Of a stretch of 4,409 nucleotides of DNA, positions 1 to 4,083 are shown piece after piece. Source of the stretch: Escherichia coli (GTDB taxonomy: Bacteria; Pseudomonadota; Gammaproteobacteria; Enterobacterales; Enterobacteriaceae); NCBI RefSeq assembly GCF_003334785.1, contig NZ_QOWV01000047.1; one strand, given 5' to 3'. Each line of letters opens with the position of its first letter. The first letter of the stretch is position 1. The notes under the pieces were generated by a model that worked only from the letters and a program-made list of their open reading frames with translations, was not told the origin of the DNA and made no database searches. The position numbers and the translations under genes were made by a program.

Positions 1-60
1 TGGCCGGCAAACCGGGTACGCGATCTGTTGCCCTGGAAAGTTGATCTGAGCTCTCAGTAA
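1..60 (+). CDS. 3' terminal fragment of an upstream ORF (partial, 19 codons then TAA); identity not determinable from this fragment, possibly murI by E. coli synteny
   Basis: Frame 1 is open from position 1 and reads WPANRVRDLLPWKVDLSSQ before TAA at 58-60. Codon usage is plausible. Too short to identify the protein; murI is only suggested because it lies upstream of rrnB/murB in E. coli K-12. Confidence 0.3.
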   Translation, partial: WPANRVRDLLPWKVDLSSQ

Positions 61-92
61 ATATCAATACGGTTCTGACGAGTCGCTTACGA

Positions 93-190
93 CAAATCCG
101 CCGGGAGCGGATTTGAACGTTGCGAAGCAACGGCCCGGAGGGTGGCGGGCAGGACGCCCGCCATAAACTGCCAGGCATCAAATTAAGCAG
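93..190 (+). other. Distal rrnB terminator-region remnant with three stem-loops and a 5S rRNA 3'-end-like segment
   Basis: Matches my recollection of the sequence between rrnB T1 and T2 (GACAAATCCGCCGGGAGCGGATTTGAACGTTGCGAAGCAACGG...). Stem-loops at 94-114 (AAATCCGC/GCGGATTT), 118-132 (CGTTGC/GCAACG) and 144-162 (GGCGGGC/GCCCGCC). AACTGCCAGGCAT at 166-178 resembles the 3' end of 5S rRNA. Confidence 0.6.
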
Positions 191-225
191 AAGGCCATCC
201 TGACGGATGGCCTTTTTGCGTTTCT
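191..225 (+). terminator. rrnB T2-like rho-independent terminator
   Basis: GC-rich inverted repeat GGCCATCC (193-200) / GGATGGCC (205-212) with a 4-nt loop TGAC, followed by TTTTTGCGTTTCT (213-225). Sequence matches the rrnB T2 terminator as carried on common expression vectors. Confidence 0.8.
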
Positions 226-310
226 ACAAACTCTTCCTGTCGTCATATCTACAAGCCATCCCCCCACAGATACGGTAAACTAGCCTCGTTTTTGCATCAG
301 GAAAGCAGCT

Positions 311-1339
311 ATGAACCACTCCTTAAAACCCTGGAACACATTTGGCATTGATCATAATGCTCAGCACATTGTATGTGCCGAAGACGAACAACAATTACTC
401 AATGCCTGGCAGTATGCAACCGCAGAAGGACAACCCGTTCTTATTCTGGGTGAAGGAAGTAATGTACTTTTTCTGGAGGACTATCGCGGCACGGTGATCA
501 TCAACCGGATCAAAGGTATCGAAATTCATGATGAACCTGATGCGTGGTATTTACATGTAGGAGCCGGAGAAAACTGGCATCGTCTGGTAAAATACACTTT
601 GCAGGAAGGTATGCCTGGTCTGGAAAATCTGGCATTAATTCCTGGTTGTGTCGGCTCATCACCTATCCAGAATATTGGTGCTTATGGCGTAGAATTACAG
701 CGAGTTTGCGCTTATGTTGATTCTGTTGAACTGGCGACAGGCAAGCAAGTGCGCTTAACTGCCAAAGAGTGCCGTTTTGGCTATCGCGACAGTATTTTTA
801 AACATGAATACCAGGACCGCTTCGCTATTGTAGCCGTAGGTCTGCGTCTGCCAAAAGAGTGGCAACCTGTACTAACGTATGGTGACTTAACTCGTCTGGA
901 TCCTACAACAGTAACGCCACAGCAAGTATTTAATGCGGTGTGTCATATGCGCACCACCAAACTCCCTGATCCAAAAGTGAATGGCAATGCCGGTAGTTTC
1001 TTCAAAAACCCTGTTGTATCTGCCGAAACGGCTAAAGCATTACTGTCACAATTTCCAACAGCACCAAATTACCCCCAGGCGGATGGTTCAGTAAAACTGG
1101 CAGCAGGTTGGCTTATCGATCAGTGCCAGCTAAAAGGGATGCAAATAGGTGGGGCTGCGGTGCACCGTCAACAGGCGTTAGTTCTCATTAATGAAGACAA
1201 TGCAAAAAGCGAAGATGTTGTACAGCTGGCGCATCATGTAAGACAGAAAGTTGGTGAAAAATTTAATGTCTGGCTTGAGCCTGAAGTCCGCTTTATTGGT
1301 GCATCAGGTGAAGTGAGCGCAGTGGAGACAATTTCATGA
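311..1339 (+). CDS. murB: UDP-N-acetylenolpyruvoylglucosamine reductase (MurB), FAD-dependent, peptidoglycan precursor synthesis
   Basis: 342-aa ORF whose translation I recognise as E. coli MurB. Residues R159, S229 (codon AGT 995-997) and E325 fall at the known catalytic positions. Shine-Dalgarno-like AGGAAA at 299-304, 6 nt before ATG 311. Stop TGA 1337-1339. Confidence 0.96.
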
Positions 1340-2301
1340 AGGATAACACCGTGCCACTGAAATTGATTGCCCTGTTAGCGAACGGTGAATTTCACTCTGG
1401 CGAGCAGTTGGGTGAAACGCTGGGAATGAGCCGGGCGGCTATTAATAAACACATTCAGACACTGCGTGACTGGGGCGTTGATGTCTTTACCGTTCCGGGT
1501 AAAGGATACAGCCTGCCTGAGCCTATCCAGTTACTTAATGCTAAACAGATATTGGGTCAGCTGGATGGCGGTAGTGTAGCCGTGCTGCCAGTGATTGACT
1601 CCACGAATCAGTACCTTCTTGATCGTATCGGAGAGCTTAAATCGGGCGATGCTTGCATTGCAGAATACCAGCAGGCTGGCCGTGGTCGCCGGGGTCGGAA
1701 ATGGTTTTCGCCTTTTGGCGCAAACTTATATTTGTCGATGTTCTGGCGTCTGGAACAAGGCCCGGCGGCGGCGATTGGTTTAAGTCTGGTTATCGGTATC
1801 GTGATGGCGGAAGTATTACGCAAGCTGGGTGCAGATAAAGTTCGTGTTAAATGGCCTAATGACCTCTATCTGCAGGATCGCAAGCTGGCAGGCATTCTTG
1901 TGGAGCTGACTGGCAAAACTGGCGATGCGGCGCAAATAGTCATTGGAGCCGGGATCAACATGGCAATGCGCCGTGTTGAAGAGAGTGTCGTTAATCAGGG
2001 GTGGATCACGCTGCAGGAAGCGGGGATCAATCTCGATCGTAATACGTTGGCGGCCATGCTAATACGTGAATTACGTGCTGCGTTGGAACTCTTCGAACAA
2101 GAAGGATTGGCACCTTATCTGTCGCGCTGGGAAAAGCTGGATAATTTTATTAATCGCCCAGTGAAACTTATCATTGGTGATAAAGAAATATTTGGCATTT
2201 CACGCGGAATAGACAAACAGGGGGCTTTATTACTTGAGCAGGATGGAATAATAAAACCCTGGATGGGCGGTGAAATATCCCTGCGTAGTGCAGAAAAATA
2301 A
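1336..2301 (+). CDS. birA: Bifunctional biotin-[acetyl-CoA-carboxylase] ligase and biotin operon repressor (BirA)
   Basis: 321-aa ORF recognised as E. coli BirA. N-terminal wHTH region around residues 22-46 ([26 protein letters not shown]). Biotin-binding loop GRGRRGRKW at residues 115-123 (nt 1678-1704). Start ATG 1336-1338 overlaps the murB stop (ATGA). Stop TAA 2299-2301. Confidence 0.96.
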
Positions 2302-2304
2302 GAA

Positions 2305-2324
2305 AGGGGAGTATTCGCTCCCCT
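2305..2324. terminator. Intrinsic terminator hairpin shared by convergent birA and coaA (probably bidirectional, stronger for coaA)
   Basis: 7-bp stem AGGGGAG (2305-2311) / CTCCCCT (2318-2324) with a 6-nt loop. On the - strand the hairpin is followed by TTTCTTATTTTTCTG (T-rich, overlapping the birA 3' end). On the + strand it is followed by the less U-rich GCAAATTATTTGCG. It sits in the 28-bp gap between the birA stop (2299-2301) and the coaA stop (2330-2332). Confidence 0.6.
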
Positions 2325-2329
2325 GCAAA

Positions 2330-3280
2330 TTATTTGCGTAGTCTGACCTCTTCTACCGCATGATTAGCACTTTTCGTCAGGATTAAACTGGCGCGCTCAC
2401 GAGTAGGTAGAATATTTTGCTTTAAGTTCAGCCAGTTGATCTCTTTCCACAATGTCATGGCAGTCTTAATCGCTTCTTCTTTAGTTAATTTCGCGTAGTT
2501 ATGAAAATAGGAATCCGGGTCGGTAAAAGCCCCTTCGCGGAATTTCAGAAAACGGTTGATATACCATGTCTGAAGTAAGTCTTCCGGTGCATCAACATAT
2601 ATCGAAAAATCGACAAAATCAGAAACAAATACATGATGTGGATCGTGTGGATAATCCATCCCGCTCTGTAAGACATTTAACCCTTCAAGAATTAAAATAT
2701 CAGGCTGAACAACCGTTTTATCTCCATCCGGGATCACATCATAAATAAGATGTGAGTAAACAGGTGCTGTAACGTTTGGCACGCCGGATTTGAGATCGGA
2801 AACAAACTTCACCAGGCGATGCATATCATACGATTCCGGGAAGCCTTTCTTCTTCATCAGACCACGTTCTTTCAGAACCTGATTAGGGTGAAGGAAGCCA
2901 TCTGTAGTGATCAGTTCAACACGACGATGTTCCGGCCAACGGCTTAATAGCGCCTGCAATACACGGGCGGTTGTACTTTTCCCCACCGCGACACTGCCAG
3001 CAATACTGATAATGTAAGGAATGCGTTGCCCGTTGGTACCAAGAAACTGTTCCAGAACTGCCTGACGGCGCAGATTCGAGCTTATATAGAAGTTCAGCAA
3101 ACGTGACAAAGGTAAATAGATCTCGGCAACTTCTTCTAACGAGAGATCTTCATTAATACCTTTGAGACGGGCGATCTCATCTTCCGATAACGTCATAGGT
3201 ACGGAATCACGCAGAGCTGCCCACTGGTTGCGGTCAAACTGTAGGTAAGGCGTCATTAACGTTTGCTCTTTTATACTCAT
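2330..3280 (-). CDS. coaA: Type I pantothenate kinase (CoaA), first step of coenzyme A biosynthesis
   Basis: Translation from ATG at 3280 (minus strand) gives the 316-aa protein [20 protein letters not shown]..., which I recognise as E. coli CoaA. Walker A P-loop GSVAVGKST (residues 95-103, nt 2972-2998 on the - strand) contains K101. The six-frame ORF runs further upstream to an ATG at 3436 (368 aa), but the recognised protein starts at 3280. No strong Shine-Dalgarno sequence upstream. Confidence 0.93.
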
Positions 3281-3545
3281 AAGCATGTTTCTGGCGGTCA
3301 TAGCTCTATCGGCAAAGCGATATTTGCCATGGCGCGTCACAGTTCTGTTGAATGGGTTAATGGGCAGGAGGGTAACACCAGATGGGGAGGAATAATAAGA
3401 AAAAATCTCTGCCAGGAAGCTATCGTTGAAAAGCAATGTGACAGATATTCCATCTGATAAAAAGAATTATGGTTTAGCAGGAGCGCATTGTTGAGCACAA
3501 TGATGTTGAAAAAGTGTGCTAATCTGCCCTCCGTTCGGCTGTTTC

Positions 3546-3641: not shown

Positions 3642-3717
<76 letters not shown>

Positions 3718-3725
3718 TCAAGTCC

Positions 3726-3810
<85 letters not shown>

Positions 3811-3926
3811 ATTTCGGCCACGCGATGGCGTAGCCCGAGACGATAAGTTCGCTTACCGGCTCGAATAAAGAGAGCTTCTCTCGATATTCAGTGCAGAATG
3901 AAAATCAGGTAGCCGAGTTCCAGGAT

Positions 3927-4001
<75 letters not shown>

Positions 4002-4007
4002 AGATGT

Positions 4008-4083
4008 GCTGATATAGCTCAGTTGGTAGAGCGCACCCTTGGTAAGGGTGAGGTCGGCAGTTCGAATCTGCCTATCAGCACCA
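4008..4083 (+). tRNA. thrT: tRNA-Thr (anticodon GGU)
   Basis: 76 nt. Acceptor stem GCTGATA/TATCAGC, anticodon stem CACCC/GGGTG with loop TTGGTAA (anticodon GGT), T-loop AGTTCGAATCT, encoded CCA (4081-4083). Confidence 0.95.

What the first reader, a model, noticed from the sequence alone, without database searches (positions are those of the whole stretch)
1333..1342. murB and birA overlap by 4 nt (ATGA), implying translational coupling
The birA ATG (1336-1338) overlaps the murB TGA (1337-1339). There is no room for an independent promoter or a canonical spaced Shine-Dalgarno; the bases upstream of the birA start lie inside murB coding sequence (GGAGACAATTTC). This arrangement links a cell-wall enzyme and the biotin ligase/repressor in one transcript and typically keeps expression of the downstream gene low and tied to the upstream one.
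Basis: seen in the sequence. Interest (0 to 1): 0.3.

Follow-up and report, generated by a model that had tools for sequence, protein, structure and literature searches.

The report
murB–birA four-base gene overlap

Summary
murB (311-1339) ends with TGA at 1337-1339 and birA (1336-2301) starts with ATG at 1336-1338, a 4-nt ATGA overlap. RefSeq annotates it the same way in E. coli, and both products equal full-length PDB chains.

The overlap is RTGA (48 ATGA, 32 GTGA, plus one truncated ATGA locus) in the window and all 80 other Enterobacterales species loci examined.

A Shine-Dalgarno GGAG lies at 1324-1327, 8 nt before the ATG and inside murB codons Val338-Glu339. It pairs with the anti-SD better (-6.4 kcal/mol) than murB's own site (-4.3). 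Its Glu codon is GAG in 75/75 species with zero synonymous changes. The five other invariant Glu codons of murB flip 11-16 times on the same tree.

No conserved RNA structure hides the start. No promoter-like or terminator-like site lies between the genes.

Most likely this is a bicistronic murB-birA unit in which birA is initiated at an SD-assisted overlapping start, by terminating murB ribosomes and probably also by free ribosomes. Coupling itself was not measured here.

This is ordinary and already known. In passing, the window's first 90 bases are the end of an IS66-family element inserted in the rrnB terminator region.

The parts
311..1339 (+). murB coding sequence (UDP-N-acetylmuramate dehydrogenase, 342 aa), stop TGA 1337-1339
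   Evidence: ORF list; NCBIfam NF000755 at 539 bits, cut-off 277; identical to PDB 1MBB 1-342; RefSeq annotation
1336..2301 (+). birA coding sequence (biotin-protein ligase / bio operon repressor, 321 aa), start ATG 1336-1338, stop TAA 2299-2301
   Evidence: ORF list; NCBIfam NF008849 at 654.8 bits, cut-off 474; identical to PDB 1BIA 1-321; RefSeq annotation
1336..1339 (+). ATGA: the 4 bases shared by the birA start codon and the murB stop codon (-4 spacing)
   Evidence: RTGA is kept in the window and all 80 Enterobacterales species loci and in divergent E. coli alleles
1324..1327 (+). Shine-Dalgarno GGAG for birA, inside murB codons Val338 (GTG) and Glu339 (GAG); 8-nt spacer 1328-1335
   Evidence: Anti-SD duplex -6.4 kcal/mol. 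GGAG and/or GAGG sits at the fixed position in 76 of 80 sequences. Glu339 is GAG in 75/75 with 0 Fitch steps, against 11-16 steps at the other invariant Glu codons
1309..1311 (+). TGA that closes the birA reading frame upstream; there is no alternative start codon between it and 1336
2305..2324 (.). G+C-rich hairpin between the convergent birA and coaA genes. It scores as a terminator for coaA on the - strand and is the likely 3' boundary of the murB-birA unit on the + strand (inferred)
193..217 (+). Hairpin GGCCATCC-TGAC-GGATGGCC followed by TTTTT, upstream of murB, identical to the K-12-like reference. By my own knowledge this is rrnB terminator T2, which insulates murB from upstream transcription
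   Evidence: Sequence; identity to L001. It was not flagged by the scan

Best explanation
murB and birA form a two-gene unit on one mRNA. The birA initiation site consists of a Shine-Dalgarno GGAG (1324-1327) written into the last codons of murB, an 8-nt spacer, and an AUG whose U and G are also the first two bases of the murB UGA.

A ribosome finishing murB releases MurB at UGA with the birA AUG one base upstream of it. The small subunit, held by the SD/anti-SD contact, can restart on birA (termination-reinitiation). The site is not buried in conserved structure and its SD is at least as good as murB's own, so free 30S subunits probably also start there.

BirA synthesis is therefore tied, at least in part, to murB transcription and translation.

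Shown here: the anatomy, the gene identities, the conservation of the register, and selection on the SD. Inferred: co-transcription, and the share of reinitiation versus de novo initiation.
For: Overlap and gene identities.

No + strand promoter-like site at 9/12 anywhere in 1-2450, and no terminator-like site between the genes. None at a lenient 8/12 in the last 640 nt of murB; the three weak candidates further upstream keep their -10 in only 5-14 of 75 species.

SD strength and spacing: -6.4 kcal/mol, 8 nt. By my own knowledge, 5-9 nt is the functional range in E. coli.

Selection on the SD: of 109 murB codons with an invariant amino acid in 75 species, Glu339 GAG is the only one with 0 synonymous changes. 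The next lowest has 8, the median is 23, and the other invariant Glu codons have 11-16 and mostly use GAA. Val338 is GTG in 59/67, the most constrained four-fold codon. Where GTG is lost, GAGG usually replaces GGAG.

Register RTGA in 81/81 junctions although the start codon itself flips between ATG and GTG.

murB directly upstream of birA is also found in far relatives (BirA 39-55% identical), with -4, -8, -13, -14 or +18 nt spacing.

Experimental precedent: 4 of 5 E. coli overlapping pairs were coupled, with variable SD contribution (PMC6728339). Coupling requires overlaps or very short distances (PMC10666635).

Weak support for co-transcription: murB and birA appear together among genes down-regulated in one Shigella RNA-seq comparison (-2.23 and -1.62, PMC4229854).
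Against: No transcript map, ribosome profiling or reporter data for this pair could be obtained. Both co-transcription and coupling therefore rest on sequence and analogy.

An overlap does not guarantee coupling: bioB-bioF showed none and menD-menH about 60%.

Conservation of the overlap is partly automatic. T1337 and G1338 are fixed by the start codon, and A1339 is the first base of birA codon 2 (always Lys/Arg).

Selection on the SD is expected equally if birA were initiated only de novo.

The promoter scan is insensitive: it did not find a promoter for murB itself either.
Confidence: 0.65

Rival explanations
1. Independent initiation only. birA is co-transcribed with murB but translated purely by free 30S subunits binding its own SD. 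The ATGA overlap is then a neutral by-product of genome compaction, since a start codon already supplies three of the four bases, and has no coupling function.
For: The SD is strong for this region and under selection. The initiation region is no more structured than those of murB or tufB: opening energy is 10.1 against 9.3 and 11.1 kcal/mol, the 21st percentile of internal windows. The review by Brown and Wade attributes the abundance of -4 spacing to ease of evolution. bioB-bioF shows full downstream translation without coupling. Deeper relatives tolerate -8, -13, -14 and +18 spacing.
Against: In 4 of 5 tested E. coli pairs with this architecture the downstream gene depended on upstream translation. 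A ribosome terminating at 1337-1339 necessarily occupies the birA start region, so the two processes cannot be fully independent.
Confidence: 0.25
2. Separate birA transcript. A promoter inside murB gives birA its own mRNA, so that birA expression is not tied to murB.
For: Internal promoters are common in E. coli operons; the abstract of PMC12083536, seen, reports them in about half. The scans used here are crude and missed the murB promoter itself.
Against: There is no + strand promoter-like site at 9/12 in murB. None appears at 8/12 in the last 640 nt, and the three weak upstream candidates are not conserved. No block of synonymous-site conservation stands out in murB beyond composition effects; the minimum z is -2.5, shared by several windows. 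murB-birA adjacency with near-zero spacing is kept across distant taxa.
Confidence: 0.12
3. Coupling by RNA unfolding. The birA start is hidden in a hairpin (CAATTTCA 1329-1336 pairing with TGAAATTG 1358-1365) that is opened only when ribosomes translate the end of murB.
For: The minimum-free-energy fold of 1276-1395 pairs the spacer and AUG with 1358-1365.
Against: The fold is no better than shuffles (z -0.79). The helix forms in only 44% of cells across 80 species, no better than shuffled or slid controls. RNAalifold finds no consensus pair at all. The opening energy of the site is ordinary.
Confidence: 0.04

Closest known systems
E. coli overlapping pairs shown to be coupled by termination-reinitiation (hyfH-hyfI, ydbH-ynbE, menD-menH; Huber et al. 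2019 and 2023, PMC6728339, PMC10666635)
   Same: [quoted passage not shown]
   Different: murB-birA has never been tested in those studies ('birA' occurs 0 times). MurB and BirA are not known subunits of one complex, so the pair belongs to the 69.6% of closely spaced E. coli pairs without complex formation.
bioB-bioF of E. coli
   Same: An overlapping pair in cofactor (biotin) metabolism.
   Different: It was measured as not coupled and has a very weak SD. birA has a good, conserved SD. This case shows that the overlap alone does not prove coupling.
trpB-trpA, the classic translationally coupled pair
   Same: Downstream translation depends on upstream translation in one operon (cited).
   Different: By my own knowledge the trp junction is of the TGATG (-1) type, and its products form a complex. 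Here the spacing is -4 and the enzymes are unrelated.
rplK-rplA
   Same: Coupling passes control of the upstream gene on to the downstream one.
   Different: No translational regulator of murB is known, so there is no known signal to pass on.
The annotated murB-birA gene pair of E. coli K-12
   Same: Identical sequence from window position 91 onward and identical gene coordinates relative to each other.
   Different: Nothing differs at the junction. Only the upstream flank (IS66-family end at 1-90) differs from the reference.

Membership tests
-4 nt (NTGA) overlapping co-directional gene pair | [quoted passage not shown] | tested here: met
   ATG 1336-1338 and TGA 1337-1339
-4 nt (NTGA) overlapping co-directional gene pair | Both reading frames are genuine protein-coding genes with these ends | tested here: met
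   NCBIfam equivalogs above cut-off. Full-length identity to PDB 1MBB and 1BIA. There is no alternative birA start between the in-frame stop at 1309 and 1336
Translationally coupled pair (termination-reinitiation) | Both genes lie on one mRNA | tested here: inconclusive
   No promoter-like or terminator-like site lies between or just upstream. The two genes are co-listed in one Shigella RNA-seq comparison. No transcript map could be obtained
Translationally coupled pair (termination-reinitiation) | Translation of the downstream gene falls when upstream translation is stopped prematurely | not testable with these tools
   This needs reporter fusions with premature stop codons, as in PMC6728339
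Translationally coupled pair (termination-reinitiation) | Very short distance (-8 to +10 nt) between stop and start | tested here: met
   -4 nt; criterion taken from PMC10666635
Translationally coupled pair (termination-reinitiation) | SD motif in the 3' end of the upstream gene (usual, not obligatory) | tested here: met
   GGAG 1324-1327, -6.4 kcal/mol; conserved and under synonymous constraint
Translational coupling by RNA unfolding | Inhibitory secondary structure sequestering the downstream initiation region, opened by upstream translation | tested here: not met
   Fold z -0.79; candidate helix not conserved; no consensus structure; ordinary opening energy
E. coli murB-birA locus as annotated | Same sequence and same gene boundaries as in reference E. 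coli chromosomes | tested here: met
   The junction is present in 5421 of 5426 complete genomes, all with both genes annotated under the match in the rows shown. Boundaries are as

The most novel reading that the evidence does not exclude
The tight murB-birA junction, often with a pantothenate kinase gene (coaA or coaX) next to it, is kept from Enterobacterales to Vibrionaceae, Moritella and Agarivorans. It may be a selected dosage device. BirA is both the ligase that activates acetyl-CoA carboxylase and a concentration-sensitive repressor. Under this reading its level would be set as a fixed fraction of MurB synthesis, so that lipid and peptidoglycan precursor supply are matched through translation rather than through a regulator.
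Probability: 0.08. Interest if true: 0.35.

Novelty: already known. Interest (0 to 1): 0.1.

Why it matters
It matters little as a discovery. The junction is annotated in every E. coli genome and belongs to the most frequent class of bacterial gene junctions.

The useful outcomes are corrective and practical:

- birA does have a canonical ribosome-binding site, hidden in murB codons. Anyone recoding or deleting the 3' end of murB, or 'codon-optimising' Glu339 GAG to GAA, is likely to change BirA levels.
- The synonymous-site analysis gives a clean, single-base test of SD function that leaves MurB unchanged.
- BirA dosage affects biotin operon repression, so the degree of coupling to murB is relevant to biotin physiology. 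It remains unmeasured.

Tried and rejected
1. RNA hairpin hiding the AUG (1329-1336 with 1358-1365). It is present in the E. coli MFE fold but rejected: not significant, not conserved, and without a consensus structure.

2. Internal promoter in murB. There was no hit at 9/12. A lenient 8/12 scan gave three candidates at 331-358, 565-593 and 666-695, with the -10 conserved in only 5-14 of 75 species, and none in the last 640 nt. A sliding third-position entropy showed no outstanding conserved block.

3. Experimental data for this pair. Thomason 2015, Li 2014, Schmidt 2016 and Pucci 1992 are not held. The Conway 2014 supplement is not held. The supplements of SMRT-Cappable-seq, the kasugamycin translatome and the internal-promoter study contain no birA or murB entry in the text held. 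Literature searches for 'murB-birA' and related terms gave nothing specific.

4. Rfam: only the four tRNAs, and nothing at the junction.

5. The search for homologous proteins returned only close relatives in its top 120. Distant BirA sequences were taken instead from the representative search. One of them (P0133) was not on record.

6. Conservation of the overlap as proof of selection for coupling. I down-weighted this, because two of the three stop bases are fixed by the start codon.

Full report
**What the window is.** The 4409 bases carry, on the + strand, murB (311-1339) and birA (1336-2301). coaA lies on the - strand (2330-3280 as annotated). Further along the + strand are four tRNA genes, Thr-Tyr-Gly-Thr (3642-4083), and the start of tufB (4198). 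From position 91 onward the sequence is identical to a K-12-like E. coli chromosome. A 400-base stretch spanning the junction is found in 5421 of 5426 complete E. coli genomes, annotated as murB and birA in the rows shown.

**Check of the observation.** In the murB frame the sequence ends GCA GTG GAG ACA ATT TCA TGA, giving ...[12 protein letters not shown]. In the birA frame it reads ATG AAG GAT AAC..., giving MKDNTVPL.
- The birA frame is closed by TGA at 1309-1311, and no ATG, GTG or TTG lies between that stop and 1336. The start is therefore hardly in doubt.
- MurB and BirA match their NCBIfam equivalog models far above cut-off.
- Both are identical over their whole length to the crystallised proteins 1MBB and 1BIA.
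- RefSeq draws the same boundaries in a K-12-like strain and in the most divergent E. coli alleles, which keep GTGGAG...TTTCATGAAGGAT unchanged while neighbouring third positions vary.

**Is it more than chance?** A scan of one genome per species returned 80 Enterobacterales loci.
- The window and the 79 loci with enough upstream sequence have RTGA at the junction with no length variation: 48 ATGA and 32 GTGA.
- The truncated locus L051 also shows GGAG...ATGA in its 17 available upstream bases.
- The stop is always TGA, and birA codon 2 is always AAR or AGR.
- This conservation is real but partly automatic. T1337 and G1338 are the start codon's own bases, and A1339 is the first base of birA codon 2.
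- The -4 NTGA arrangement is by far the commonest spacing of co-oriented genes in bacteria and archaea (PMC12548453). E. coli has 820 co-directional pairs at -8 to +10 nt (PMC10666635). The feature is genuine and ordinary.

It is one.
- GGAG (1324-1327) lies 8 nt before the ATG. By my own knowledge this is within the functional range in E. coli.
- Its predicted duplex with the 16S 3' end is -6.4 kcal/mol, better than the -4.3 of murB's own AGGA.
- Across 79 junctions the mean is -7.2 kcal/mol.
- GGAG and/or GAGG sits at the same place in 76 of 80 sequences.

The decisive evidence comes from synonymous sites.
- The G at 1327 is the third base of murB codon Glu339, and this codon is GAG in 75 of 75 alignable species (78 of 79 junctions).
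- Of the 109 murB codons whose amino acid is invariant in these species, Glu339 is the only one with no synonymous change on a neighbour-joining tree. The next lowest has 8 changes and the median is 23.
- The five other invariant Glu codons changed 11-16 times and mostly use GAA.
- Val338 is GTG in 59 of 67, the most constrained four-fold codon of the gene.
- When Val338 is GTA or GTT, the next codon usually begins with G, restoring GAGG.

Selection therefore acts on the RNA sequence GGAG or GAGG itself. This fits the general finding that downstream genes of overlapping pairs usually carry an SD inside the upstream gene (PMC6728339).

**Structure and transcription signals.**
- The minimum-energy fold of 1276-1395 pairs the spacer and AUG with 1358-1365, but it is no better than shuffled sequence (z -0.79).
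- That helix forms in only 44% of cells across 80 species, no better than shuffled or slid controls.
- RNAalifold predicts no consensus pair.
- Opening the birA initiation region costs 10.1 kcal/mol, against 9.3 for murB, 11.1 for tufB, and a mean of 13.0 ± 3.8 for internal windows. Coupling by unfolding of an inhibitory structure is therefore not supported.
- No + strand promoter-like site at 9/12 occurs anywhere in 1-2450, and no terminator-like site lies between the genes.
- At a lenient 8/12 only three candidates appear, all more than 640 nt upstream of birA and poorly conserved.
- Third-position entropy shows no outstanding conserved block in murB.
- These scans are weak, since they did not find murB's own promoter. 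They fail to support an internal promoter but cannot exclude one.
- A G+C-rich hairpin at 2305-2324 lies between the convergent birA and coaA genes.

**Wider phylogeny.** Diverged BirA representatives were traced to their contigs.

| Source (BirA identity to the window's BirA) | Arrangement |
|---|---|
| Ca. Enterovibrio escicola (55%) | murB directly upstream, 13-nt overlap |
| Unnamed high-GC organism, L085 (51%) | GTGA 4-nt overlap with GGAG 8 nt upstream; coaA convergent |
| Moritella marina (49%) | 8-nt overlap |
| Two unnamed lineages, L089 and L091 (44%) | 4-nt overlap, followed by coaX |
| Agarivorans (39%) | coaA-murB-birA-tufB; overlaps of 4 nt (coaA-murB) and 14 nt (murB-birA) |
| L094 (41%) | 18-nt gap between murB and birA |
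| Cluster that includes Orbus sasakiae, locus L082 (60%) | A transporter gene lies between murB and birA |
| L092 and L093 (41-42%) | No murB visible upstream of birA |

The murB-birA linkage is therefore old and usually tight, but the exact -4 register is not universal. Brandis et al. describe murB, birA and coaA as an insertion between the ancient rrnB and tufB operons in Salmonella (PMC6735719).

**Mechanism.** The best-supported reading is a bicistronic murB-birA mRNA. Ribosomes terminating at UGA 1337-1339 restart at AUG 1336-1338 with help from the SD, and free 30S subunits can probably use the same accessible SD.
- Precedent: 4 of 5 E. coli overlapping pairs were coupled. menD-menH was about 60% coupled and bioB-bioF was not coupled.
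- Shown here: the anatomy, the gene identities, the conserved register, selection on the SD, and the absence of conserved structure.
- Inferred: co-transcription, and how initiation is divided between the two routes.
- murB and birA are both listed as down-regulated in the same Shigella RNA-seq comparison, which is weak support for co-transcription.
- By my own recollection, EcoCyc lists murB-birA as one transcription unit, and the gene pair was described by Howard et al. 1985 and Pucci et al. 1992. These could not be read here.
- I put 0.65 on at least partial coupling, 0.25 on purely independent initiation, about 0.12 on a significant separate birA transcript (not exclusive), and 0.04 on unfolding-type coupling.

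**Verdict.** The feature is already annotated and belongs to the commonest class of bacterial gene junctions, so interest is low (0.1). The one piece of added value is the demonstration that the birA SD is the most synonymously constrained site in murB, which offers a one-base experimental test.

**Noticed in passing.** Window 1-90 is not rrnB sequence.
- It is the 3' end of an IS66-family (ISCro1-like) transposase gene, with its stop at 58-60, plus the element's terminal repeat ending at 90.
- It is joined at 91 to the rrnB terminator region, between what I know as T1 and T2.
- None of 5426 complete E. coli genomes has window 1-330 contiguous.
- The T2 hairpin (193-217) still separates the element from murB.

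Noticed in passing
window 1-90: This stretch is the 3' end of an IS66-family (ISCro1-like) transposase gene, with stop TAA at 58-60, plus the element's terminal inverted repeat (...GAGTCGCTTAC ends at 90). It is joined at 91 to the rrnB terminator region, about 220 nt upstream of murB. No complete E. coli genome among 5426 has window 1-330 contiguous. The window looks like a whole short contig bounded by repeats, with IS66 on the left and tufB on the right.
   Followed up: partly
window 193-217: The hairpin GGCCATCC-TGAC-GGATGGCC followed by TTTTT is, by my own knowledge, rrnB terminator T2. It is identical to the reference but was not reported by the terminator scan. This shows that the scan's negatives are weak evidence.
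   Followed up: no
window 1336-1338 and aligned positions in L002-L081: The birA start codon alternates between ATG (48) and GTG (32) among Enterobacterales species while the overlap register never changes. The last murB codon accordingly always ends in A or G.
   Followed up: yes
window 2302-2329: birA and coaA converge with only 28 nt between their stop codons. They share one G+C-rich hairpin (2305-2324), which scores as a terminator on the - strand only.
   Followed up: no
window 2330-3436 (- strand): The longest coaA ORF starts at a TTG (368 aa). RefSeq instead starts coaA at the ATG at 3280 (316 aa), and the NCBIfam model is matched from residue 9 of that shorter form.
   Followed up: no
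L089 2081-2833, L091 3447-4193, L092, L093, L094; L090 494-1450; window 2330-3280: A pantothenate kinase gene stays next to birA across distant taxa, but as different isozymes and orientations. coaX lies directly downstream, often overlapping birA by 11-17 nt as called (44 nt in L093; a 1-nt gap in L094). coaA lies upstream of murB with a 4-nt overlap in Agarivorans. coaA is convergent in E. coli and in L085.
   Followed up: partly
L082 1366-2517: In the Logan contig L082, whose BirA clusters with Orbus sasakiae BirA, an MFS transporter gene lies between murB and birA. It overlaps the birA start by 17 nt as called, and birA keeps a GGAG 5 nt upstream of its ATG.
   Followed up: no
L006 (Citrobacter koseri NCTC10786): murB has an internal stop or frame break in this assembly, while the junction GTGGAG...ATGA is intact. 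This could be an assembly error or a pseudogene.
   Followed up: no
window 1329-1336 with 1358-1365: The 8-bp complementarity CAATTTCA/TGAAATTG could pair the birA AUG with birA codons 8-10. Its 3' arm is intact only in the window and one other Escherichia locus (L004); other Escherichia sequences already carry a mismatch, and the helix is not conserved across species.
   Followed up: yes
window 3811-3926: A 116-nt spacer lies between tRNA-Tyr and tRNA-Gly inside the tRNA-tufB cluster. It has a terminator-like hairpin on the - strand at 3870-3882.
   Followed up: no
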